DNA of 54,715 nt, filler included, from Basidiobolus ranarum (Eukaryota), in the NCBI GenBank assembly GCA_040143965.1. It is 4 parts of 4 records of this genome, joined end to end, with 100 filler letters (N's around TTAATTAATTAA, not from the genome) between each part and the next. Parts side by side here need not be neighbours in the genome. Positions count along the whole stretch, not along the records: positions 41,137 to 54,715 come from JASJQH010007351.1; 3 more parts are not named here. One strand, 5' to 3'. The translations under genes and the position numbers were made by a program. The notes under the pieces were generated by a model. It searched no databases and was not told the origin of the DNA. It worked only from the letters and a program-made list of their open reading frames with translations. Below, piece by piece: positions 13,621 to 54,715 of the stretch (the first letter of the stretch is position 1; each line of letters opens with the position of its first letter).

Positions 13621-13720
13621 NNNNNNNNNNNNNNNNNNNNNNNNNNNNNNNNNNNNNNNNNNNNTTAATTAATTAANNNNNNNNNNNNNNNNNNNNNNNN
13701 NNNNNNNNNNNNNNNNNNNN
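13621..13720. other. Artificial contig-join spacer (N44-TTAATTAATTAA-N44)
   Basis: 100-nt N run with a six-frame stop linker; PMA1 is cut at this point. Confidence 0.97.
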
Positions 13721-27330: not shown

Positions 27331-27430
27331 NNNNNNNNNNNNNNNNNNNNNNNNNNNNNNNNNNNNNNNNNNNNTTAATTAATTAANNNNNNNNNNNNNN
27401 NNNNNNNNNNNNNNNNNNNNNNNNNNNNNN
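27331..27430. other. Artificial contig-join spacer
   Basis: N run with TTAATTAATTAA at 27375-27386; IML1 is cut at this point. Confidence 0.97.
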
Positions 27431-41036: not shown

Positions 41037-41136
41037 NNNNNNNNNNNNNNNNNNNNNNNNNNNNNNNNNNNNNNNNNNNNTTAATTAATTAANNNNNNNN
41101 NNNNNNNNNNNNNNNNNNNNNNNNNNNNNNNNNNNN
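41037..41136. other. Artificial contig-join spacer
   Basis: N run with TTAATTAATTAA at 41081-41092. Confidence 0.97.
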
Positions 41137-42403
41137 CAGTCCTAACCTCCATCATCAATCAAGACACCAAAACCATTCTCATAGCTTAAGAATGGCGTTT
41201 TGCGAGGCAGCATACACCATGATGAAAATACTTCCATTACCTCAACTCGGTCATCTCTACGACCAACTGATTAGATTACCTCAATATGCTTCGAAATCAT
41301 TCTTATCCGTCCAATATGTTAAAGATGACTCGCTCTCAAGTATAGCTACCGAATCGATAAAAAATGGAGTGCTCAAATGGCGCTCAATCGAGTCATTAGA
41401 TCAGACTGTCTATGCCCCATGTTACTCTATTCTTTCACAGGTATGGACGTTATATGCATCGAGGACTGTCAAGCCTTCGCCAGGCCTTTACGTTGGGTTG
41501 TACTACTTGCAAACCGTGCCAACTGGTATTAACATACTGCTTCCACGCGATCGTAAGCATATGATTCCTATGGTGAAGATTAGAGAGGATTCTGACCTTG
41601 ACGAGGATGAGTGGAAGTTACTCCTTGAAGCAAAAAAAGGCTCGGAAGAAACCAATTTAAACGATGATATGTACTTCGATCTGCAAGCTCGTAAAGGCGA
41701 ATCTCCGTTGAATTATTTTAAATATAAATTTGCAACTGACTTCTTGAAACTACAACATCTTGTCCGACTCAGCTTGAGTGCTCAAGATATCTACGACGTC
41801 GAAACGACAGAATTCAAAGTTCCAAAAGATTTTGGAAGCCCCAATAATGTAATGGAAACAGTTCGGATAATATTAATTGTGAAGCCATTGCGACTTTTAC
41901 AAGATTCAAGCGAGCTACAAAGCTATGCGCATCATCCACGACTTGCTATGTACCCATTCAGACACTTTGAAACACTTCACAATCATATGTACAACCCAAA
42001 ATATGTTGTTTATCGCCGTGCGATGCTTTCATACCAGAACTACCTTCACGAAGCTAAAAGAGGAATACTATCGTGTATTCAGCATCTGAACCTGACAGGC
42101 GACAACTCTGGACCGTTGACAAAAGAGTCCATCATTTCACTGATACACGAGAAGATTGACAAACTAAAAAGTACTTGGCCAACGATATCTTGGAGTGTTC
42201 GTGTTTTAGATTGGGATCGAGATAGACAATGGAAACACAATGCTAACTCGCAAGTTATGCACTCGGGCGGAGATCTGACCATCAAACGGGCCAAGTCAGG
42301 TACCAAAGGCTCGTTAAAGAATAGTAATAACAATGAAAAGATATGTTACGCTGCTCCTGTGCTTGAGGAATTAGTAGGATATCCTACAAACTTGATGCTG
42401 TGA
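41137..42403 (+). CDS. ANKFN1/WIDE AWAKE C-terminal-domain-like protein, paralogue A (5'-partial)
   Basis: The ORF is open from the contig edge and is clearly paralogous to 45788-47362. Motifs LGHLY, KWRSIESL, SPGLYVGLYYL, MVKIRE...EEW-like DEW, IYDVE, FETLH..Y, TWPTISWSVRVLDWDR. Confidence 0.8.
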
Positions 42404-42789
42404 CCCTGCTGACAACATGAGTAAAAATCCGAGATTTTGGTCAGTTTTGATGACTTTTTTGTGAAATATAAGAATAGCCATTATCTTTGCTAAATACACC
42501 AGTTTTAAACCGTCTATCCTCTACTATATAATCAAGCATTCTTTGTTCTTGCATCTTTAATTTTGCTACTCACCGAATATCGAAATATCACCGAATAAAC
42601 CATGTTTTCAATTTAACAGCTGCAGCAAGAATCTTTTTTGAAGTGAGTTCGTAAAAAGGCATTCATGTACGAGATTGTTATCCCTCCGGGATAGATGAAG
42701 TTGATAGGTGCAATAATGGATTTATTAAGGCATACACAAGTGTGTTGATACGATCTGAAGATCTAGTAGAAACCCGATCAAATGCTTCA

Positions 42790-43553
42790 TTAATCATCTT
42801 TAAGTTCTAGTGACCACGTAAACTCGATATTCGCAACTGGCTCTGACTTATCGTTCACTATTTTCACCATTGAAATAGCCTCTCCTTTTCCACTAAAGCG
42901 CTCCACCTGAAATTCCCCTTCAGCGGTTAATTTGCCTCGAGCTTTCTTGAAATACTATATCATTGTTATCAAGATATTGAAAGGAGATAAAAGGTTTCAA
43001 GATAAGTAGAATCAATGGTTAGTTGAAGAGAAATGGTGGAGAATTCAAAAAAAAGTAGGCTCATAATTACCTCCACTTTGAATCCTTTCAAGATGCCTCG
43101 ATCTTTTTTACCGAGTTTCGTGAATAATGCTAAACCACCTACTGTTTCACCAAATAAACATAAAGCAGCGGCATGTACACTATTGAACGGATTTCGAAGT
43201 GAATTCTTTTCCTGCAATGTATGTAAACAGTTAAATAATTGAGAACTTTGACTGGTTTGGTTTGAAGTAATACATATTGACACAATTTCACTCACTTCGA
43301 TGGTAGCCACCACTCGGCCGGTTTCTAACTCGAGAATTTTCAAAGGAATAGTTCTACTGTATGGATTAATAAAGCCAAGTATTTTCACGAATATCCAACT
43401 CCTACAAATACGAAGTGGAGAATCTCCAAGTGCTTTCCATAAAGGAAGTGGCTCACGCAGTTTGAACAGATTCAAATATATGAAAATAGCACCAGGTAAT
43501 ACTGCTAATATCAGAGTACCTAACGAAGCCAAGACAATAATATTGAAACTCAT
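42790..43553 (-). CDS. Hotdog-fold thioesterase-like protein (PaaI/DUF4442-type) with N-terminal TM segment, 3 exons
   Basis: NPYSRTI...GRVVATIE|EKNSLRNPFNSVHAAALCLFGETVGGLAL...GILKGFKVE|YFKKARGKLTAEG...VANIEFTWSLELKDD*. The first ~30 aa are hydrophobic. Confidence 0.82.
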
Positions 43554-43906
43554 TTTCACAAAGAGTAGAAAGATACTTGTCCACTATATAACTTGGCAAA
43601 AAAAGCGGATTACTCAATTTTCAATTGAAACCATACCGAATGATCAGCTAGTGAGCACGTGAAACCTCATGGTTCCCTTCTGAAATTATGCTACAAAATG
43701 AGACTACGTGTACATTTTAGCTAGCTTGCCTAAAACACCGATGGTAATAGAATAATTTCAACTGTGGTAAAGAAATTTAAACTCTCCATGTCAATTCTAA
43801 AGAAACGTAAGTTGAGGAATGACTTTCTGCGGTACCTGCTGAGGGAAGTGATCCGCAATATTTCTCTAGGAATTACTCCAGTTTCGGTTTATTAATTTAC
43901 TGATCA

Positions 43907-46900
43907 ATGTTGGTAGCAACACGGGCTATGAGATATAAATACCATAACCTACCAACGTGCTTATTAATTTGAAAATCAAATATTACGGATACTAATGGCT
44001 TTAATGGTTACTCTGTGGCTTGAGGGTAATCTGTGCTCCTCAGTATATAACTATTTTATAACCCCAGCTTATAATAAATGCAGATGATTTACTACATCAA
44101 TTTACTATGTATGCATCCTACAACCTTATTTAAATACGCTGCTGAGAACAAGATGGAACAAATCTCTCCGAAAGACCCTGGTTTTATCCTTGACTAGCGA
44201 ATGTTCTGCTACTACAATCAATTCCTTCCCTTCTTTCATAACGTCCTGCTAAATCCTACAGGTCGTACATACTTGACTACTAACTGAAGACATCGCTATA
44301 ATCAGTGATGATTCACACCTGTCTGTCGACAATGCCCTAGAACATATCAAGTTCGTTATATTAGATTTTTACAATGAGGTACAGATAGGGAGTCGGTGTT
44401 TTCGAAGTAATATTGAATCCTTGGAAGTAAATAATCCCCGAATGATATGTAGATATCAGTTTTATACTTTAATGTATTCAATCATATCGAATGAGATAAA
44501 TGCTAGTATTATTACCTTGCATGTCACCAATTATCCTTATAGCATGGGGGGAATTACGCATCTCCGTATCGATCAACCTTTAGCCGGTAGGAGCAAGCGA
44601 AACTGATTGGAGCTAGCACTTCATTTATTATCTAACACGACATAGCTGAAAGAGACTCGAGCTACATCAATATATAGACTCAGCTATATATTTCGGTATA
44701 TCCCCCATTCAATCAATCTGCTTACTGAAACATATAACTTCACTCTATCTATAAGTGGAACTGGCGAAAGTCATGATTTGTTTTTGGAAGTCTCAGCGAA
44801 AGCAGGGCGGCAAGTGCATAAATTTCATTTCCTTTCATCAATTTCACTACCTGCAATGATCGTAACTCAGGTACTGTGAACTCATATCTACTCATTAAGA
44901 TATATAGTATTGATCAAGAAGCACTTATAAATAGACAGAGTTGGGTATTGCTCATTCTTACACTCCAAGGAACTCTGGAATCACAAACTAACCATAGTCT
45001 GATAGTTTCATTCAATCCTCAATCCTTGAATAATCTGTGGAGTAGTTAATATTCATATGAGCATCACTGAAAAAAGAAGGTCTCTCACAAACCAACCTGA
45101 TTTTCTTTCGGCTGGGTAACGTACTAATAATTGAGTACACCTTGAGCAACTACTAACTGAGCAGTTTTATACCTTAGTTCAAGTATTACCATCGTGGTCA
45201 AAGATGTATCACGCATAAAGACAATAACTCTATGCATTCCTCAAGGAACAACAGTTCGAAAAGTGGCTGAGCTGGTATGACTTGTTTGTAATGACTTATT
45301 TGATCTAGTTCCCCCCCCCACTAACTAAGCAACCCAATGCAATCCAACAGTGTTGCGAGAAATTCGAATATTGGGAGGATTGGAATTATGCAATGTGAGT
45401 ATTTGGTCTCCTCAGAAAATTCGGTATATTAGTATTGACAAGATCAGTGAGAGGATAGAGTTGTTGATACGCAAGTACTATTGCCACTGTAAACACCATG
45501 CAACGAGACTAATTCATTTATTTTGCCATTTAGCTACTGCGAGTTACTAGATAGCTGGCTAAATGATGATATCCCAGTTGATGCATACCCACCAGAAGCC
45601 AGAGTACGTTATCACACATACAAAAGTCATTCAAATGTAGTCTGACTTCATTTTGCTTATAGGGATCACTTCTTGTTCTGAGTAAGAAACCAGATTACTT
45701 CGAACTCGTTTCCACAAAATCGGTAAGGTTTGAAAACTATCCTCTACCAGAGTTAGATCTTTAACGATTAGAACTTTTGATATAAAGTCCATTCTATCCC
45801 GCAACTCAGAAGAGGTCATCAGATATCTACCGCCCAAAGCAAACTCTTTCACCAACTTTTTCGGTCGCTCGTATACCTCCTTAAAGACTAAACTGCGCGA
45901 TGACTGTCTATACCTCTCTGTATTGATATTTCGTAGCGACCATAAGGTATTACAGACCGGAGGTGGTCTACTTCCTACTCTAACTGTTGCCGAGAACTTC
46001 GCTTCACTCAATGGAGGAAAGGAGTTTACCGAAAGCTGCGAGGAATTCTCATGGATCCTGAAGAGCTCGATGGAGTGGGAAACGACGAATGTATCCGAGT
46101 GCTACAATCCTAACCTCCATCATCAATCAAGACACCAAAACCATTCTCATAGCTTAAGAATGGCGTTTTGTGAGGCAGCAGATACCATGATGAAAATACT
46201 TCCATTACCTCGACTTGGCCATCTTTACGAACAGATGATTGAACTCCCAAAATACAAGTCAAAAGTACTTTTAGCTGTTCAATATGTTTCCGACAAATAC
46301 CTACCCACAGTTGCCACTGACCTGCTGAAGAATGGTACTTTAAAATGGCGCTCGATCGAGTCTTTGAATTCCAAAATGTACACTCCATGCTATTCCGTCC
46401 TCTCACAAGCATGGGCCATATATGCCTCTCGAACTGTCAAGCCTTCGCCTGGACTCTATGTTGGGCTGTATCATTTGGAGACTACAGCAACTGGCATCAA
46501 CATTTTACTTCCTCGAAATCGTAAACATATGCTTCCCATGGTAAAAGTTCGGGAAAATTCTGAATTAACCGCGGAAGAGTGGAAACTCATTTCGGAAGCC
46601 AAACAGGAATTCTCCGAAGAACTAAATAATGAAATGTTTTTCGACTTACAAACACGAAAAAAGATCTCGAAATTAGATTATTTCAAATATCAACTTGTAA
46701 AAGCGTTCCTAAAGTTACAAAATCTTTCACGACTAAAGTTAAGTATGGCCAATATTTACGATGTAGAAACGGTTGAATTGAAAGTACTTCGAAGAGAAAA
46801 TAACAGGGATGTTATGGATACGGTTCGGATCATATTATTGGTAAAACCTTTACGTCTAATACAGGAATCTAACGTTCTAAAAAGTTATGCCCATCACCCA

Positions 46901-47362
46901 CGTCTCGCCATGTATTCATTTAAGCACTTTGAAACCCTTCATAACCATGTTTACAACCCCGCATATGTATCATATAGAAGGAAAATGCTCTCTTATCAGA
47001 CCTATCTTAACGAAGCCAAACGAGGGATTCTCTCGTGCATTCATCATCTTAAGCTGGAAAATGAGGATGCAGCTCGGTGGACGAAAGAGAAGGTTACCGC
47101 GCTGCTCTATCGGAAAATTGACGAATTGAAAAGTACATGGCCATCCATTTCTTGGAGTGTACGAGTACTGGAATGGGACCGAGCGAGACGCTGGGAACAA
47201 TTAGGGGGCTCTCATAAGGTACATTCTGCTAGCGAATCGTGTGTCTTGAGGGCCAACTCCATTCACAAAATAATATTGAATAACGCGAAAAATACACCAT
47301 TCATTACGCCACCTTTTGAAGATGAACTACCTCTCTATGCTAGTAATCTGATGCATGTTTGA
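43907..47362 (+). CDS. ANKFN1/WIDE AWAKE C-terminal-domain-like protein, paralogue B; many small 5' exons (start uncertain) and a 1575-nt last exon
   Basis: The last exon 45788-47362 is open. Upstream exons 45178-45274, 45351-45394, 45459-45470, 45534-45603 and 45663-45722 splice in frame. Further exon-like segments extend back to ~43.9 kb but are not firmly resolved. Confidence 0.75.
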
Positions 47363-50300
47363 TCACTCCATTTGGTTGATGTGATTTCTTTAAAAGAGTT
47401 GTTCAATCAGATTTCAATTTTGTGACTTTCCCAACGTTTTACTTGCGTTCTCTTTGTTTATTTGATTTTTAGAATGATAAATAAATTTGTTCATCTCCAT
47501 AATCACGCAACAGCGAATATATACCAGTAATAGCTGATCAGTAAGAATGTTAAGCAACTGCTTTACTATTGATAGGGAGACAGTTTCTGGGGATTGCACT
47601 AGTCAATATATATTCACGGTAACAACACAAAGTATTTATGCATTTCATAGAAATACAAAAAATAAACAATCGGGTTATGTTCAGTACATACAGTCTGCTC
47701 ATATCCATTCTGGATAGCATAATACTCTATGTATCATTCAGGTATTTGAGATAAATAATTAGTTCAATAAGCCTATGATATAAGGAGCAGAGATATTACT
47801 AATCTGCTCACATAGAATATAATATACTAAACCATGTATGTGGAAATTCTGATCATTTCTTAAGCACACTACAGACTTTATATATTTCTTCCATGCATGC
47901 TAGAGCTCTCTTTATAGATTTCGTTCATCTCAGATGTCGGTAATGAGAGTTAGTTACGATAACTTCTGCGTACAATTTTAGTGATATTGCTTCATCTTGT
48001 CACTTTGTGTTCAATCTCTCAGGCCATTGAAGATTTGTCAGTACTTGAGAGACATATCAGGTTGCATATCCCTTTTATATCTGATTACAATATTCTTTCA
48101 ACTTGCATGCAAATCATAAAAAGGTAAGTTGAGGAGACTGCTTGATGAGTTGTTTTGAAAACAAGTATGGTAAATAGCAATAAACGTAATCATCTTAATT
48201 TCCGAGACATTTACTTGAGCTCTGATTGAGTTGTGCGTTGTATGTACAGTCGATTCATGCAGTTAATACAAAGATATTGTTATTTGAGAAATAGTTACTA
48301 AAATGTGAATAAGTTACGAGCTATAGTGTGTTGTAAACTACTGGTATATTTTTAGATGATCATCCTTATCTTTTAATCAGTGTAAAGAATTACATATGAT
48401 ATATAATTCCAACCTACTTTTGTTAAAGTATTTTGGGACTTTGGAAGTTTCAGTCAAGTTCCCTAACTTTAAACTTTTCTCATTTATAAAACGTTCATTG
48501 ATTTTGTATATTATTTGATTGCTTTTGAATCTCCATATAAGCATTTTTCTAACTATTATTAGTTGAGCGGATATATATATACATGGTGATCAAGCACCGG
48601 TTTTGACATCTAGAAAATTCAATGGAAAGAAATGAATCTTTATGAACACCAGTGTACATTCCAAAAGATACAACATTTTAAATTTATCTCATTGTTTTCG
48701 TAAATAAACACCAGATCAAATTGCTAATCTTAAACCATGAGCTGGTTAACTCTATAGGTTCTAGTTACATTTGGCCACACGTATACACTCTGTAGTCAAC
48801 ACCATGGCATGGAAAACAATGGCAAATGGCTTAGATATTTGTTTAGTGTCTAGATATTCAGCTATCCATATAATGCATGTTCAGGGCTAACCGTATTGCT
48901 ATTTCAAGAAAAAAATTGAAGGTATAGTGAGCGAAATAGCCTTATAGATTAGCGATACTTTGACCGATTTAGTGCTATAAACCAATGGATGAACAAGAAC
49001 TTCCAATGTGATCGAAATCTAGGAATTAATTCCAATCAAACGATCAATGCTCATTAATGACAGTTGATTTCAAGTGGAATCATGGTTGAACGTGTGTGGA
49101 AGTTTGGCTAATCCATTGGCAATACCTTACAATTTCACCTCTGCGTAAGACCCAGTTAACGAGTGGAGTAATAGTTTACTCGTTGAGGTTAGGGTTTTGT
49201 GGTCGGCTTTCCATATAATTATTCCATACCTCCGGTAAACTAAAATTCACATCGTCGATTCGTTGAGTGATTTCGGGATAGAATCTCACTCTCTGATGCT
49301 TTAATCATTTACCGAGATCACCCTCTCACTGCAGAGGAACCGGCGCATGTTCGAGTCGCAATTGGATCTAGTGTTGACCTCAAGTATCATGACAATGTTC
49401 GGGAAATGGATTCAATCGCTGATACGTTGGCTGTGTCTCTTGTTGCCCTAGTCAGTCCAATCCATCTGTTCACGGGGATTAGAGTATTCAGAGTTCCAAG
49501 AGATTTGATAGTTCAGAAGAGTCATTTAGGAAATAAGCTATATTAAAGTGACATAAGCAACCTACCATGATTGTGTACGAAAAGTAAAATTAATTTAGGT
49601 AGCTAACGGTATTCTATTTCATATCTGAGGTAAAGCCATCGATAAGTTGCGTGGTTAGCTTGGCTTGGTTCAGAGGTGTCGTGAGAATTAAATGAATTTC
49701 TTGGGATACGGGCTAAATGATCACTGTCTCGATCAGTAATAGAATTCACCTCGACCCACAACACCATCAGCATGTGTGATTTGCAGTGACTAGCACAAGT
49801 CGACAGAATATGACTGAATAGCGTCCAGTGGATACGAGTCTTGATTCGGCGAAACTTGTACCTTTTAATCAAAATCCCGTTGTCTCACTTTCGGGACAAC
49901 GCGTCACCTCTATTGGTGGTGGGCGCTAGAGAGACGTAAGTGGCATTCCCGCTGAACAAACAGTCTACGTGTTACAACTACAATAAGGATTCGGTAGAGC
50001 AGGCACAGTGTAGTTGCGCATGGATACGTCAACACAGAGTGTGCAGCAGTAGATAATCCAATTCTAGTGTAGTGAAACTTGGACAGTGGCAAAATTACAA
50101 GAATTGTGAACTGGAGTGCAAGCTTAAAGATTCATGCATGTCTGGTGTTTCCGACAGACCGATAGGGTTACTAAGGATAGCCTTACCACACCTGACAATA
50201 TCTATGTCTTAAACCCCACCACAAATTCGAAGCTATCAATTTAATATATCTTCTCTCCCTTTTCTCGAAAGAAGTCAGATGAAGCAAAATAATTGGCAGG

Positions 50301-50553
50301 AAGAACCCCGCGATCAAGTCGATTTCAATCACAGCCACAAACAGCACCATCATACACGATCAGTTTCCACTTTCGGAATAGCTTGTGGACACCGGGGATT
50401 CTCAGTGCATTCCTTCCTTGGATGGAGCTCGTAAATCCCAAACAGACATCAACTATAAATGGCCTATTTGGCCCAGATATGTCTGGCAGAAAACTGAACT
50501 TTCGTCATTTTTAATCTTTCGACACTTTCCTCAAATCATTCTAGCTTCGTGCC

Positions 50554-51530
50554 ATGCTCCGTCAAATAACTCAGATCTTGGTTATAGTTACTTTACTAAG
50601 CTACGCTGTTGTTGATGCTACCCTTGCCTTTACTGCCCCTTTGGGGGTAGATTGGAAAGCTGGCACTAAAAATATCATTACCTGGTAAGTGTTGCAGGAT
50701 TGTCTACTTTGTTCACTATTAAATTTATGTCTGACATTTCGATCATCTCTTCTCAGGGTCGATAATGGTGACGGTAAAGGAATGCCTGCGACTGTTGACC
50801 TGTCTCTACTAAATGGACCAGCTAGTGCCCTTCAACTCATCGCGAATGTTGCATCTAATGTAAGTACTGCACCAGGTTCGTACGAATGGACTATACCCAC
50901 CGATATCCAACCAGGACAATATGTACTTAGAGCTGGTGGCGGTGACGGTTCCTATAGTCCATTTTTTACCATCAGTGCTCCTGATGCCAACGCCACCACT
51001 ACCTCCTCTGCCAGCGTTCAGCCAACTGTAATACCCGTAAATGTTACCACATCTACTGCACCAGTTAGTACTTCCGAGTCTTATGCTGCTACTATAACTG
51101 TCACTACCACCACTACCTCCTACTCAACTGAACTTGAGCCAACTGCAGTACCCACAAATGGCATCACACCCACTTCACCCGTTAGTAGTTCGGAATCTTA
51201 TGTTGCTACTGTAACCATCAGTACCACCGTCACTTCATCCAAGTCTATAACTGATGCTGCATCTTCCCAACCTACCTCTGATCTTAGTACCCTTAGTCCT
51301 TCACCTATATCCTCTGTAAGTTCCATTGTTTCCGTAAGTTCCGTTGCACCCGTAACTTCTTCAGATTCAGCCATCTTTTCATTAGCCACCGAGACAGCTA
51401 CAACATTGAGCCTAGTGTCACTGCAGTTAGAGAAAATGTTAATTCATCCAATGCAGCAGAACATATGGTATCATCAATGAAGATTGTATCAATGATCGCG
51501 ATTTTCAGTTACATCGTCACCTTTGCATAA
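50554..51530 (+). CDS. Ser/Thr-rich secreted GPI-type cell-surface protein (Kre9/Knh1-like N-terminal domain); apparent frameshift near 51400
   Basis: Signal MLRQITQILVIVTLLSYAVVDA; FTAP..WKAG...ITW|VDNG...DLSLLNG...LQLIANVASNV...GSYEWTIP...YVLRAG...YSPFFTI; S/T stalk; the hydrophobic tail lies in a shifted frame ending at TAA 51530. Confidence 0.85.
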
Positions 51531-52195
51531 ATCTATCCCAAGATAGTGAAAGGTTACTACAATACATCTATTTATTCCCTTCTCCCCTCCCCTTCATCTT
51601 CCCATTTCTTTTCTCTTTTTCTTCTCTCTATGGATGACCATGATGATTTTTCGTTATCTCCATTTACTCAACTCATTCATTTACACGAACAATTCACACC
51701 ATGGAAATATCATTGAAAATAAATATGAATGTTCAATCATACATAATTCTATGTCAAGATCGAAATCCAATTCATCGAATGAAATTCCATCTCATCATTC
51801 AATTTATTAATATTAATTTCATTCCCAATGAATATTCCTTGATTTTATTATTTATCAAAAAACCAATAAAAAATTTTAAGATGTATTTCATTTCATAATC
51901 TATATGAAAATCTTTCTAAATTTTGGAATGAAATATTTCGAAATTTAAGAAGAAATTGATTCTATTAAAAAGATCATGTTTATGAAAAATTTATTGTATT
52001 GTTCCTATTAGTAATCAAATGGGAATTAAATACTGGAAAATAATCCGGCAATTCCATTACTTCTTGATCCAATTTTATTGAAATTTCGTGGGTGATTTAT
52101 GGATTTCTTTGAATAGAGTGAATGGACTGAACTTGCATTATATGAAACTACTTTATCTAGGTATGAAATGGGTTCAAGTTTGGTTACTGCTTTCC

Positions 52196-53074
52196 TCAGA
52201 ATACACCCCCATAGGATCCCATAAATGTACCCATACCCATAACCGTAACCATAATCATTACAATGTTGGGGATATTCTTTACGTTACCACTGGATGTAGC
52301 GAGTGGAGTGGGAGTCTGGTAGGGATTGGAGGTAGTCAATGAAGGTATATGGCTAGATGTGATTGGGGTGACAACGGTAGTAGAACTAACATTACTAGAT
52401 ACAGTCTCGGTACTGGAAGAAGGTTCTACTGTAGAGGATACTAGGACACTGGAGGAGATTATGGATGTGGGAGTTTCAGACGTCCCAACAATAGCACCAA
52501 CCGAGGATGTAGCGGGGGAAGATTTAGAATCACTAGTGGGGATACTCTGGGAGGTACTGGTATTGGTACTCTTTTGTGAAGTAACAGGTGATATAGACGT
52601 AGTAGCATTGTTGGATGCAGTTGGTGCAACGGGAGGAATAATAGGATCAGCTCCGATAATGTCAAAATATGGACTGTATGTACCATCTCCACCACCTGCT
52701 CTAAGAACATATTTCCCAGGATTAATATCATTAGGAATGGTCCACTGATAAACACCAGAGGCTGAGTTTACATTGGATGCAACATTAGCAATGAGTTGAA
52801 GAGCACTGGATTGACCACTCAAGAGAGACAAATCAAAGGTTGCAGGCATTGGTTTACCATCCCCATTATCCATCCTTCAAATCAAGGTAAAAATGTTATA
52901 AATGCGTATGGAATAGAAAAGACAATTGGGAAGGGATATTTACCAAGTGATGAGATTTTGGGATCCAACTTTCCATTCAACACCCAGAGGAGATGTGAAA
53001 GCAAGAGTAGCGTCAACAACAGCATGTCCGAGAAGAGCGACAATGATCAGCAAGTGAGTCGTAAGTCGAAGCAT
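52196..53074 (-). CDS. Ser/Thr-rich secreted GPI-type cell-surface protein, paralogue of 50554..51530, 2 exons
   Basis: MLRLTTHLLIIVALLGHAVVDATLAFTSPLGVEWKVGSQNLITW|MDNGDGK...; intron 52875-52943 sits in the same Trp codon as in the paralogue; hydrophobic C-terminus. Confidence 0.88.
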
Positions 53075-54715
53075 GATTTAAAGATGTGAGGTATAAGTAA
53101 ATTCAAACTTGAAGATTTGCGCTGATGGAGAAAAAGTGACAGGATTTTATACTACCACTGCTGCAAGCTGTCTCAGTTGGTATATTTATTCATTCTAGAA
53201 ATATAGTCAAGTCCTTTGAATGTCTTGATGTCATAAGGCACACTTTTGCCGGAGCTGAAAATGTAGTGCGACAATGTAATTTGTTGGAGGAATCTGAACA
53301 TCCTCTCACTTGTCCAATCAATCGTTGCAAAATGATATTTATTGGAAGTAGATTCACTCCAAAAATAAGCATATCCGATTCTTGGGTTATTTCAAGAAGC
53401 AAAGATTAAATATATCCCTCTGCACGTGATTCCAAATCCAATAGAAAGTGAGCAGTTTGTCTGGCGTGAAACTCCTGGAGAATTAGGTTCTCGATGTTTG
53501 TATCCGTCTCGTTGCTAGGTGAGGTATGTTCATGCCAGATGGATGGAATCCTTTTGTTTGAAATGTTGAGTGCTTTATTTAGGACCCAGCAATATTTTTA
53601 GATCGCTTTGGTATTCACCCACGCTGAGGCATACCGTCACAAGACACTATTATTCTCAATTGGGTAGAAACCACAGGCTATTAGAGATTGCTGATCCGCA
53701 AGAGGTAATATAACGTGGAATTAACAACATACTAGCAACAGAGTATGCCTCTCTAGACACACGTTCAGTAGAATGACTGCTGTAGAATTGAATAATTTGA
53801 ATCACGAGTTCGTCGCTTCATGCTAAAGCTGCAAAGGTTTCAACATGGTCATCAGGCTGCCCTACCACACAAGTAGGGTAATTGTAGGAAAATAAAGATT
53901 CAACGGTATCAACATCCCAGCCCAGCCCAGATAATAGATCAAATTGATGGCACTCTCCAAGATGCTCAAAACTCCGATCTTTATAATGAGGTTCAACCAG
54001 AATCAGTAAATTTCTAAACTGAGTAATCCTTCTTTACCCCAAGTCTGACGCTCTGGAACTGACGATGATTATCACATTGTCACCCATGGCTTTGAGTATC
54101 AAAAAAACTGACTATGCCCACTGGTATGCCTAAGGGTTGAGTACTTTTATTGATCTATTCTTACCAATCTGGTATGTCATTTTACTCGTCATTTGTAAGT
54201 GAACAGTCATCTCATTGAGGAATCTTAGATGGAATACGAACATCAATCTCATTGTAAACAAGTGATATGGAATTTACCATATTTTCAATACAGGCGCAAA
54301 CGAGAAGCTCATCTATTTTGTAGATTTCACCAAGTCGCACAACCGTTTCAAGTTCTGATTAGATACCGTTTGAAATATCAGCCAGTATAATTGATCCCAC
54401 TCAACTTCTCTTGTTGAACACAAGCTCCTACACGGTATATTAGGTGAGTATCACTTAGTATCACACATCATGCGTAATATAATCATAAACTTCAATCAAG
54501 TGTTATGGAGATTAAGTCCAGTAGTAAAAGTGTATATATACTAAGAGTAATTTTGGTGATGGGCCTACCATCAGATTAATCAGGAATACATGATGAGAAT
54601 GATATTAAGAATGGCATTAAAAACGAGGAATAAATACATTATATGAAATGGGGGGGGGCAAGTGAAAGAATACTATAAAAGATCCGATCATTCCTTCATC
54701 TCAACAGGTGACTCA

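What the first reader, a model, noticed from the sequence alone, without database searches (positions are those of the whole stretch)
41137..47362. Tandem fungal genes carrying the ANKFN1/WIDE AWAKE conserved domain, a family characterised only in animals
Seen: two co-oriented paralogues share a ~420-500-aa globular region. Recognised from memory: its motifs are colinear with the region C-terminal to the ANK-FN3 module of vertebrate ANKFN1/mWAKE and Drosophila WIDE AWAKE/Banderuola. Pairs (fungal ~ animal): LYLSVLIF..KVLQTGGGLLPTLTV..F.W..K.S..WE ~ YLA..F...VLVT.ED.IP.VEVD..F.W..KLS..WE; RMAFCEAA..M...L....LGHLY ~ R.KML.A..Q.Q..LG...LG.VY; KWRSIESL ~ KW..ISKL; SPGLYVGLYHL....GINILLP....MLPMVKVREN..LT.EEW ~ SPGLYLGYLKL....I.VLV....N.L.HVKIREN..IS.EEW; IYDVETVEL ~ LY..EV.EL; FETLH..YNP ~ FE.VH..Y; TW..ISW...VL.W.R ~ VW..MRW...L.YAR. 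In animals these proteins act in clock output/sleep, polarity and spindle orientation. Inference: the domain predates animals and has an unstudied signalling or polarity role in early-diverging fungi, here duplicated.
Basis: partly seen in the sequence, partly recalled or inferred. Interest (0 to 1): 0.8.

Follow-up and report, generated by a model that had tools for sequence, protein, structure and literature searches.

The report
Fungal relatives of animal ANKFN1/WAKE protein
Two neighbouring genes of the fungus Basidiobolus ranarum encode true relatives of the conserved core of the animal sleep and polarity protein ANKFN1/WAKE, without its ankyrin and fibronectin parts, and similar genes occur in many early-diverging fungi.

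Summary
Window 41138-42403 is a gene cut by a contig edge. Window 45057-47362 is a complete six-exon gene, Basidiobolus ranarum K7432_008515, 634 aa. They are co-oriented paralogues, 63% identical over 416 aa.

A profile of nine Basidiobolus paralogues finds named animal ANKFN1 proteins at E 3e-12 and below. Profile-profile comparison gives 99.3% probability, E 1e-20, over 393 columns.

The fungal proteins lack ANK, FN3 and the C-terminal RA domain. Instead they carry an N-terminal ubiquitin-like beta-grasp domain that weakly resembles ANKFN1's own RA domain.

Named relatives occur in 11 further fungal genera and an aphelid. One of them, Saitoella, has only a partial core fused to MHYT.

On a tree, the fungal/aphelid side is split 100/100 from the ANK-FN3 side. 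Its branching roughly follows fungal taxonomy, which favours old vertical descent over the single gene transfer proposed in 2015.

Novelty is moderate. Non-animal homologues and a Mortierella example are already published.

The fold of the core could not be assigned. A role as a small-GTPase-controlled scaffold is inference only.

The parts
41037..41136 (.). Artificial contig join (N44 - TTAATTAATTAA - N44). It marks the start of the 13,579-base contig that holds the finding.
41138..42403 (+). Gene 1: the 3' part of an ANKFN1-core paralogue (421 codons plus stop), cut at its 5' end by the contig edge. It corresponds to aa 217-632 of gene 2. P0010 is the 403-aa reading from the first Met.
   Evidence: It is 74% identical to K7432_003367 and 62% to gene 2. 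It is sister to P0004/P0005 at 100/99 on the tree.
41483..41497 (+). GLYVG strand of gene 1, the counterpart of the animal GLYLG of GLYLGYLK.
42790..43583 (-). Intervening gene with a DUF4442 (hotdog-type) domain in two exons. It is not part of the family; shown as context.
   Evidence: PF14539, E 1.1e-10 and 0.002.
45057..47362 (+). Gene 2: complete gene K7432_008515 (P0001, 634 aa), six exons. Exact-match blocks are 45057-45116, 45179-45274, 45351-45392, 45535-45603, 45663-45722 and 45788-47359, plus the stop. Splice sites are placed only to within a codon or two.
   Evidence: (100% identity).
45179..45692 (+). N-terminal ubiquitin-like / RA-like beta-grasp domain (aa 21-100), spread over exons 2-5.
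45839..47212 (+). ANKFN1/WAKE conserved core (aa 128-585), one compact alpha/beta unit.
   Evidence: hhalign aligns aa 127-578 with Pinctada ANKFN1 511-920. AF2 pLDDT is mostly above 90 and pTM is 0.83.
46451..46465 (+). GLYVG strand of gene 2. G332 is present in 65 of 65 aligned sequences, L333 and Y334 in 63 of 65.

Best explanation
SHOWN. The two genes are paralogues of a Basidiobolus-expanded family. There are at least 7 copies in B. ranarum and 5 in B. meristosporus. Their 450-aa globular core is homologous to the three conserved 'non-motif' blocks of animal ANKFN1/WAKE/Banderuola/Nmf9.

The fungal form has no ANK repeats, no FN3 domain and no C-terminal RA domain. It is built as: N-terminal beta-grasp (ubiquitin/RA-like) domain, a short conserved linker, the core, and a disordered tail.

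The same build occurs in Mortierellomycotina, Glomeromycotina and Zoopagomycota. The core alone was also found in Mucoromycotina and an aphelid. The fungal/aphelid sequences form their own side of the tree.

INFERRED.
1. The core was present in the common ancestor of fungi and animals and was inherited vertically. ANK-FN3 was added on the holozoan side.
2. The protein is a non-enzymatic scaffold or adaptor. The beta-grasp domain docks on a GTP-bound Ras/Rap/Rho-type GTPase or another partner at the cortex. The core then holds or positions membrane-associated partners, as WAKE/Bnd does for Dlg, Rdl and channels in flies. In a fungus this would most plausibly serve polarity or cortical organisation.
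3. The tandem pair arose before the B. ranarum / B. meristosporus split and was duplicated again as a pair.
For: Homology:
- A profile of 9 Basidiobolus proteins against 1.84 billion representatives gave 164 hits at E<=1e-3.
- Of the 149 listed hits P0011-P0159 scanned with Pfam, 45 carry Ank, fn3 or RA and 9 carry all three. None of the 39 best hits (P0011-P0049) does.
- Of the 7 animal proteins looked up, 5 are named ANKFN1 by NCBI or UniRef.
- hhalign of A1 against 14 animal ANKFN1 gives 99.3%, E 1.1e-20, 393 columns.

Architecture:
- No Pfam family reached its cut-off in 9 of 9 Basidiobolus paralogues at E<=1.
- The AF2 model from 65 sequences has pLDDT 84 and pTM 0.83.
- Residues 21-100 form a beta-grasp whose matches include Ras/Rap-binding RA and RBD domains.
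- The N-terminal profile against ANKFN1's RA scores 32.5, P 2.3e-4. Five controls score 9-17.

Distribution:
- 30 hits were looked up and 20 carried organism names: 12 fungal, 1 aphelid and 7 animal.

Tree (careful IQ-TREE, 63 rows x 423 columns):
- The ANK-FN3 side is split from the fungal/aphelid side at 100/100, on a branch of about 2.2.
- Mortierellomycotina, Mucoromycotina, Glomeromycotina and Basidiobolus are each 100/100 or 100/99.
- The Mucoromycota grouping is 92/87.
- Gene 1 groups with K7432_003367 and its B. meristosporus orthologue (100/99). Gene 2 groups with B. meristosporus 307129 (100/99).

Scaffold reading:
- Of 36 columns at least 75% conserved in the core, most are aromatic or aliphatic.
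- The only conserved polar residues are K202, R234, K363, R365, E374, E492, H495 and R575, with no Cys/Ser/Asp set.
- Holozoan relatives pair the core with CRIB or RA GTPase-binding modules (PMC4488434, passages).
Against: - The N-terminal domain hits no Pfam RA model. The best match is TUG-UBL1 at E 0.33 in one Basidiobolus member and 3e-4, below the cut-off, in P0032.
- No GTPase binding was tested.
- The core's fold was not compared on its own. The beta-grasp domain filled both result lists, so an enzymatic or GAP/GEF-like fold is not excluded. Several conserved Arg/Lys residues could be functional.
- No named chytrid or unicellular holozoan was in my sample. Among Dikarya the only named hit is the Saitoella MHYT fusion with a partial core. 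Vertical descent therefore rests on a tree without those lineages and without an outgroup.
- Deep fungal nodes are weak (68/38, 74/80, 89/53).
- No expression data could be obtained.
Confidence: 0.6

Rival explanations
1. The fungal genes descend from a horizontal transfer out of a unicellular holozoan into an early fungus, as Zhang et al. 2015 suggested for Mortierella. They are not inherited from the opisthokont ancestor.
For: Zhang 2015 (PMC4488434, passage read) called the Mortierella copy 'choanoflagellate-like' and found none in basal or sister lineages. In my sample of 20 named hits there is no chytrid, and no Dikarya other than a partial MHYT fusion. The tree has no outgroup.
Against: The family is present in 11 further named fungal genera spanning all three Mucoromycota subphyla, two Zoopagomycota lineages and Taphrinomycotina, plus an aphelid. 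Branching on the fungal side follows taxonomy. The fungal side is not nested in the ANK-FN3 side (100/100). If there was a transfer, it must predate the split of Mucoromycota, Zoopagomycota and aphelids.
Confidence: 0.2
2. The core is a catalytic or regulatory domain acting on small GTPases (GAP/GEF-like) or on another substrate. It would not be a passive scaffold, and the beta-grasp, CRIB, RA and DEP partners would merely deliver it.
For: The core recurs fused to GTPase-binding or membrane-signalling modules: RA and Ank-fn3 in 45 of 149 hits, DEP in 2 and MHYT in 4. CRIB fusions are reported in PMC4488434. R234, R365, R575, K202, K363 and H495 are conserved in at least 75% of 60-65 sequences.
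Against: No Pfam or PDB sequence match was found. No PDB chain scored above the beta-grasp matches for the whole model (inconclusive for the core). The strictly invariant positions are P173 and G332, and the near-invariant ones are mostly Trp, Leu, Tyr and Phe, as expected for a structural core.
Confidence: 0.15
3. The resemblance to ANKFN1 is chance or compositional, or gene 1 is a dead copy or an assembly duplicate.
For: A single-sequence Pfam scan finds nothing. Gene 1 is incomplete.
Against: E 1.1e-20 over 393 columns with seven colinear motifs. Gene 1 keeps an open frame of 421 codons and the family's near-invariant residues, including GLYVG. It is only 62-63% identical to gene 2, so it is not a haplotig, and it has a closer orthologue pair elsewhere.
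Confidence: 0.02

Closest known systems
ANKFN1 / Nmf9 (mouse, human), WIDE AWAKE / Banderuola / CG45058 (Drosophila)
   Same: The whole conserved region C-terminal of FN3 is shared. Fungal aa 127-578 align with Pinctada ANKFN1 511-920. This includes the G-L-Y-x-G strand, whose first Tyr is the most conserved site in animals (PMC9210315, passage). As in the published animal model, the region is predicted to be one compact unit.
   Different: The fungal proteins have no ANK repeats, no FN3 and no C-terminal RA. They carry an N-terminal beta-grasp domain instead. The signature reads GLY[VLI][GS]L[YLIV][HY] in Basidiobolus, not GLYLGYLK. Basidiobolus has 5-7 copies per genome, whereas the papers report one per genome outside vertebrates.
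The Mortierella verticillata homologue noted by Zhang et al. 2015, and the 'two Mucoromycote fungi' of Ross et al. 2021
   Same: The type is the same: conserved non-motif domains only. Mortierella sp. and Actinomortierella proteins are among my best non-Basidiobolus hits (E 1.5e-69 and 2.6e-45).
   Different: Those were single instances, read as possible gene transfer and excluded from analysis. In the passages I read, no N-terminal domain, wider fungal range or paralogue expansion is described. Figures and supplements were not seen.
RA / RBD beta-grasp domains of Ras/Rap effectors (Grb14, RalGDS, PLC-epsilon, Rasip1, Afadin, SHANK3 SPN, SIN1 RBD)
   Different: No Pfam RA hit. Ubiquitin, SUMO and FERM F1/F0 domains match equally well. 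Ras binding is untested.

Membership tests
ANKFN1 homology group (Zhang 2015; Ross 2021) | Three highly conserved non-motif blocks C-terminal of FN3 | tested here: met
   hhalign gives 99.3%, E 1.1e-20, 393 columns. The profile hits named ANKFN1 proteins at E 3e-12. I did not map the paper's three ovals onto my columns, because the figures are not held.
ANKFN1 homology group (Zhang 2015; Ross 2021) | GLYLGYLK signature peptide | tested here: inconclusive
   G-L-Y is kept in 65/65, 63/65 and 63/65 sequences. Gene 1 and gene 2 read GLYVGLYY and GLYVGLYH. The Y-L-K half is not kept in fungi.
ANKFN1 homology group (Zhang 2015; Ross 2021) | Two ankyrin repeats | tested here: not met
   No Ank family at E<=1 in 9 of 9 Basidiobolus paralogues. 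None at E<=1e-3 in the 39 best hits P0011-P0049.
ANKFN1 homology group (Zhang 2015; Ross 2021) | Fibronectin type III domain before the core | tested here: not met
   No fn3 hit. The AF2 model shows a beta-grasp at that place, not an FN3 sandwich.
ANKFN1 homology group (Zhang 2015; Ross 2021) | C-terminal RA domain (ancestral form) | tested here: not met
   The tail aa 588-634 is predicted to be disordered (pLDDT below 50). No RA hit.
RA / Ras-binding beta-grasp domains | Beta-grasp fold | tested here: met
RA / Ras-binding beta-grasp domains | Sequence membership (Pfam RA / RA_2) | tested here: inconclusive
   No Pfam RA hit. hhalign against the ANKFN1 RA sub-alignment gives P 2.3e-4, 44% probability in local mode and 67% in global mode. 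Controls give P 0.09-0.7.
RA / Ras-binding beta-grasp domains | Binding to a GTP-loaded Ras/Rap GTPase | not testable with these tools

The most novel reading that the evidence does not exclude
The RA-like beta-grasp plus ANKFN1 core is an ancient opisthokont small-GTPase effector cassette, more than a billion years old by recalled dating. Early-diverging fungi keep the minimal form. Holozoa inserted ANK-FN3 and placed the Ras-binding domain at the other end. Dikarya lost the cassette or reduced it to a membrane-anchored MHYT fusion. The protein's original job would then be cortical or polarity organisation under Ras/Rap/Cdc42 control. Its roles in sleep timing, vestibular function and asymmetric division would be later uses of that job. 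Basidiobolus has expanded the family to at least 7 copies.
Probability: 0.3. Interest if true: 0.65.

Novelty: new member of a known kind. Interest (0 to 1): 0.45.

Why it matters
ANKFN1/WAKE gives strong phenotypes in flies, fish and mice: sleep timing, vestibular function and asymmetric cell division. Yet no biochemical activity is assigned to its most conserved part in the papers I read.

Showing that the core is widespread in Mucoromycota, Zoopagomycota and an aphelid matters in three ways.
1. It weakens the published idea that the lone Mortierella copy came by horizontal transfer.
2. It dates the core to before the fungus-animal split.
3. It offers simple organisms without nerves, and a simpler architecture, for asking what the core does.

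The core is repeatedly paired with GTPase-binding modules: CRIB and RA in Holozoa, and an RA-like beta-grasp in fungi. That pairing gives a concrete, testable hypothesis.

Tried and rejected
- Pfam on the two open frames and on all 9 Basidiobolus paralogues gave nothing above cut-off.
- A PDB sequence search with the profile gave nothing at E<0.7.
- AF2 with only the 9 close paralogues gave an unusable model, pLDDT 32.5. It was rescued by a 65-sequence alignment.
- Foldseek against the PDB had no hit at E<=0.001, and every hit listed was to the beta-grasp domain.
- VIA-align against 48,161 chains had all 50 rows shown on residues 9-110, bar one spanning 20-328. The core's fold therefore stays untested.
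- ESM Atlas on the whole protein scored 0.84 for an arthropod cluster carrying RA in 33-40% of members. On the core alone the score was 0.78. Both are below the tool's own trust level. Its structure search used a poor Atlas model.
- The search for homologous proteins with the 65-row alignment returned only 14 proteins, from Basidiobolus and Actinomortierella. It was of no use for a taxon survey.
So there is no paralogue count from DNA and no expression evidence.
- Earlier scan notes held nothing relevant.
- I considered and rejected the idea that the two copies are alleles or haplotigs, because they are only 62-63% identical.
- I did not send a complex prediction, because no candidate GTPase partner sequence was in hand.


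Full report
WHAT THE WINDOW IS

The window is four contigs joined by artificial linkers (N44-TTAATTAATTAA-N44) at 13621, 27331 and 41037. The finding lies on the last contig, 41137-54715, which is 13,579 bases long. The protein of the second gene is letter-for-letter 'hypothetical protein K7432_008515 [Basidiobolus ranarum]' (P0001, 634 aa), recorded on a contig of 13,579 bases. No whole genome is held for the window.

THE OBSERVATION

Gene 1 is an open frame from the first base after the N run to a stop at 42401-42403, 421 codons in all. Gene 2's large last exon is 45788-47362.

Exact-match mapping of P0001 gives six exon blocks: 45057-45116, 45179-45274, 45351-45392, 45535-45603, 45663-45722 and 45788-47359. 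One residue at a splice junction was not placed, so the borders are good only to a codon or two.

tblastn puts P0001 aa 217-632 on 41138-42397 at 63.3% identity, E 6e-176. So the two co-oriented paralogues are real. Gene 1 is incomplete only because the contig ends there.

Between them, on the minus strand, lies a two-exon DUF4442 gene (42790-43583). 'Tandem' therefore means same strand with one gene in between.

HOMOLOGY TO ANKFN1/WAKE

Single-sequence and family-wide Pfam scans, and a PDB sequence search, gave nothing.

I built a profile from nine Basidiobolus paralogues (A1) and ran it against 1.84 billion representatives. It found 164 proteins at E<=1e-3, 46 at <=1e-10 and 22 at <=1e-30.

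I scanned the 149 listed hits P0011-P0159 with Pfam at E<=1e-3:
- 45 carry at least one of Ank, fn3 or RA.
- 9 carry all three, in the order Ank, fn3, matched region, RA.
- None of the 39 best hits (P0011-P0049) carries any of them.

From P0050 (E 3.1e-12) downwards, many hits show the GLYLGYLK peptide. The literature gives this as the signature of ANKFN1 (PMC9210315 and PMC4488434, passages read).

Of ten such proteins looked up, seven are animal. Five of those are named 'ankyrin repeat and fibronectin type-III domain-containing protein 1' by NCBI or UniRef: Eurosta, Hydra, Clytia, Pinctada and Parasteatoda. Mesorhabditis and Bradybaena have uninformative names.

Profile-profile comparison of A1 with 14 animal proteins (A2) gives 99.3% probability, E 1.1e-20, over 393 aligned columns. 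P0001 aa 127-578 align with Pinctada 511-920.

ARCHITECTURE

With only nine close paralogues, AlphaFold2 failed (pLDDT 32.5). With a 65-row alignment of fungal and animal relatives (A3) the model has mean pLDDT 84.0 and pTM 0.83. It divides as follows:
- aa 21-100: a beta-grasp domain.
- aa 101-148: a less confident linker that still holds the near-invariant F135.
- aa 150-585: one compact alpha/beta unit.
- aa 588-634: a disordered tail.

An 18-row profile of the fungal N-terminal domain, compared with the RA domain of the animal ANKFN1 alignment, scores 32.5 (P 2.3e-4, 68 columns, probability 44% local and 67% global). A shared T-T-x-R sits at the start of the helix. Controls score lower: reversed RA 11.9, FN3 11.8, ANK 8.9, and two core pieces 16-17. 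I read this as an RA-like beta-grasp, possibly related to ANKFN1's own RA domain. That relationship is not proven.

The domain is shared by the Mortierella, Actinomortierella, Entrophospora and Piptocephalis proteins and by several unnamed relatives.

The core itself was not matched to any solved fold. Because the beta-grasp filled both result lists, this is inconclusive.

The conserved core columns are mostly Trp, Leu, Tyr, Phe, Gly and Pro. The only conserved polar residues are K202, R234, K363, R365, E374, E492, H495 and R575. That fits a structural or binding domain better than a classical enzyme, but does not exclude the latter.

DISTRIBUTION AND DESCENT

I looked up 30 hits, and 20 carried organism names.

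Twelve are fungal:
- Basidiobolus
- Mortierella sp.
- Actinomortierella ambigua
- Actinomortierella wolfii
- Entrophospora
- Rhizophagus
- Geosiphon
- Umbelopsis
- Radiomyces
- Calcarisporiella
- Piptocephalis
- Saitoella

One is an aphelid (Amoeboaphelidium) and seven are animals. The other ten are unnamed metagenome or run-assembly proteins.

I built a careful IQ-TREE tree of the core with 63 rows and 423 columns. P0032 was left out for low coverage, and the long unnamed rows P0046 and P0112 were dropped. The ANK-FN3 side is separated from the fungal/aphelid side at 100/100, on a branch of about 2.2 substitutions per site.

On the fungal side:
- Mortierellomycotina, Mucoromycotina, Glomeromycotina and Basidiobolus are each supported at 100/100 or 100/99.
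- The three Mucoromycota groups plus Calcarisporiella join at 92/87.
- Piptocephalis and Basidiobolus, with unnamed rows, join weakly at 68/38.
- The aphelid sits outside with unnamed rows at 89/53.

In the quick tree that kept the two long rows, P0112 sat at the base of the ANK-FN3 group (99*). P0046 sat weakly (78) on that side of the midpoint.

This pattern is what vertical descent in Holomycota predicts. It argues against a recent or single transfer into Mortierella, as suggested in 2015 (PMC4488434). It cannot exclude a very old transfer. I had no named chytrid, nucleariid or unicellular holozoan in the set, and no outgroup.

THE BASIDIOBOLUS EXPANSION

B. ranarum has at least seven members: K7432_008515, the unannotated gene 1, 003366, 003367, 009333, 001199 and 014408. 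B. meristosporus has at least five.

Gene 1 is closest to K7432_003367 (74%) and to B. meristosporus 339602 (70%). Gene 2 is closest to B. meristosporus 307129 and to K7432_003366.

K7432_003366 and 003367 lie on one contig with consecutive tags. The type-A/type-B pair therefore appears to be older than the split of the two species, and to have been duplicated again as a pair. The papers report one gene per genome outside vertebrates (PMC9210315, passage), so this expansion is unusual for the family.

WHAT IT MOST LIKELY DOES

Shown: homology of the core, loss or absence of ANK-FN3, and an N-terminal beta-grasp.

Inferred: a scaffold recruited through the beta-grasp to a GTP-bound small GTPase or another cortical partner, with the core binding further partners. 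The grounds are these:
- Holozoan relatives pair the core with CRIB or RA (PMC4488434, passage).
- My hits add DEP fusions (2 of 149) and MHYT membrane-sensor fusions (4 of 149, one of them from Saitoella).
- In flies the protein is needed for the localisation of Dlg and raises membrane levels of the Rdl receptor (PMC5493435 and PMC9076693, passages). I did not see Mauri 2014 or Liu 2014 themselves.

I put about 40% on this mechanism, 15% on a catalytic or GAP/GEF-like core, and leave the rest open.

COMPARISON AND NOVELTY

The genes belong to the ANKFN1 core family, but they fail the ANK, FN3 and C-terminal RA features that define the orthology group as published.

The type 'non-motif domains only' was already noted once in Mortierella in 2015, and as 'potential distant homologs' in two Mucoromycote fungi in 2021. 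Three full-text searches found no paper that treats the fungal proteins further. Eight papers held both 'ankfn1' and 'fungi', and only the two Hamilton-lab papers are relevant.

New here are four things:
- the breadth across early-diverging fungi and an aphelid;
- the taxonomy-congruent tree;
- the N-terminal RA-like domain;
- the Basidiobolus expansion.

I rate the finding as a new member of a known kind, with interest 0.45.

Noticed in passing
window 13621-13720, 27331-27430, 41037-41136: The window is four contigs stitched together with N44-TTAATTAATTAA-N44 linkers. Neighbourhood across these points is meaningless.
   Followed up: yes
window 42790-43583 (-): A two-exon DUF4442 (hotdog-type) gene lies between the two paralogues (PF14539, E 1.1e-10 and 0.002).
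   Followed up: partly
window 50689-51480 (+) and 52196-52876 (-): Two convergently oriented paralogous genes for Ser/Thr-rich proteins with a Kre9/KNH-like N-terminal domain (E 8e-9 and 3e-7). They are probably cell-wall or GPI-type proteins.
   Followed up: partly
P0064, P0116 (Saitoella complicata), P0146, P0156: Proteins with an N-terminal MHYT membrane-sensor domain followed by the first part of the ANKFN1 core (profile positions about 135-269; in P0064 also 331-425). This is the only named Dikarya hit, and a fusion I did not see described.
   Followed up: partly
P0089, P0115 (unnamed metagenome proteins): The first half of the core (profile 144-374) is followed by a DEP domain (E 6e-15 and 8e-14). 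The source organisms are unknown.
   Followed up: no
P0016, P0018, P0020 (Rhizophagus, Geosiphon and one not looked up): The named Glomeromycotina members (P0016, P0018) and the unexamined P0020 are 1,844-2,423 aa long. Beta-grasp plus core sit at the N-terminus, followed by a C-terminal extension of over 1,000 aa with no Pfam family.
   Followed up: no
K7432_003366 / K7432_003367 (P0002, P0004), another B. ranarum contig: A second pair with consecutive locus tags mirrors the window's pair (type of gene 2 plus type of gene 1). This suggests a pair-wise segmental or genome duplication.
   Followed up: partly
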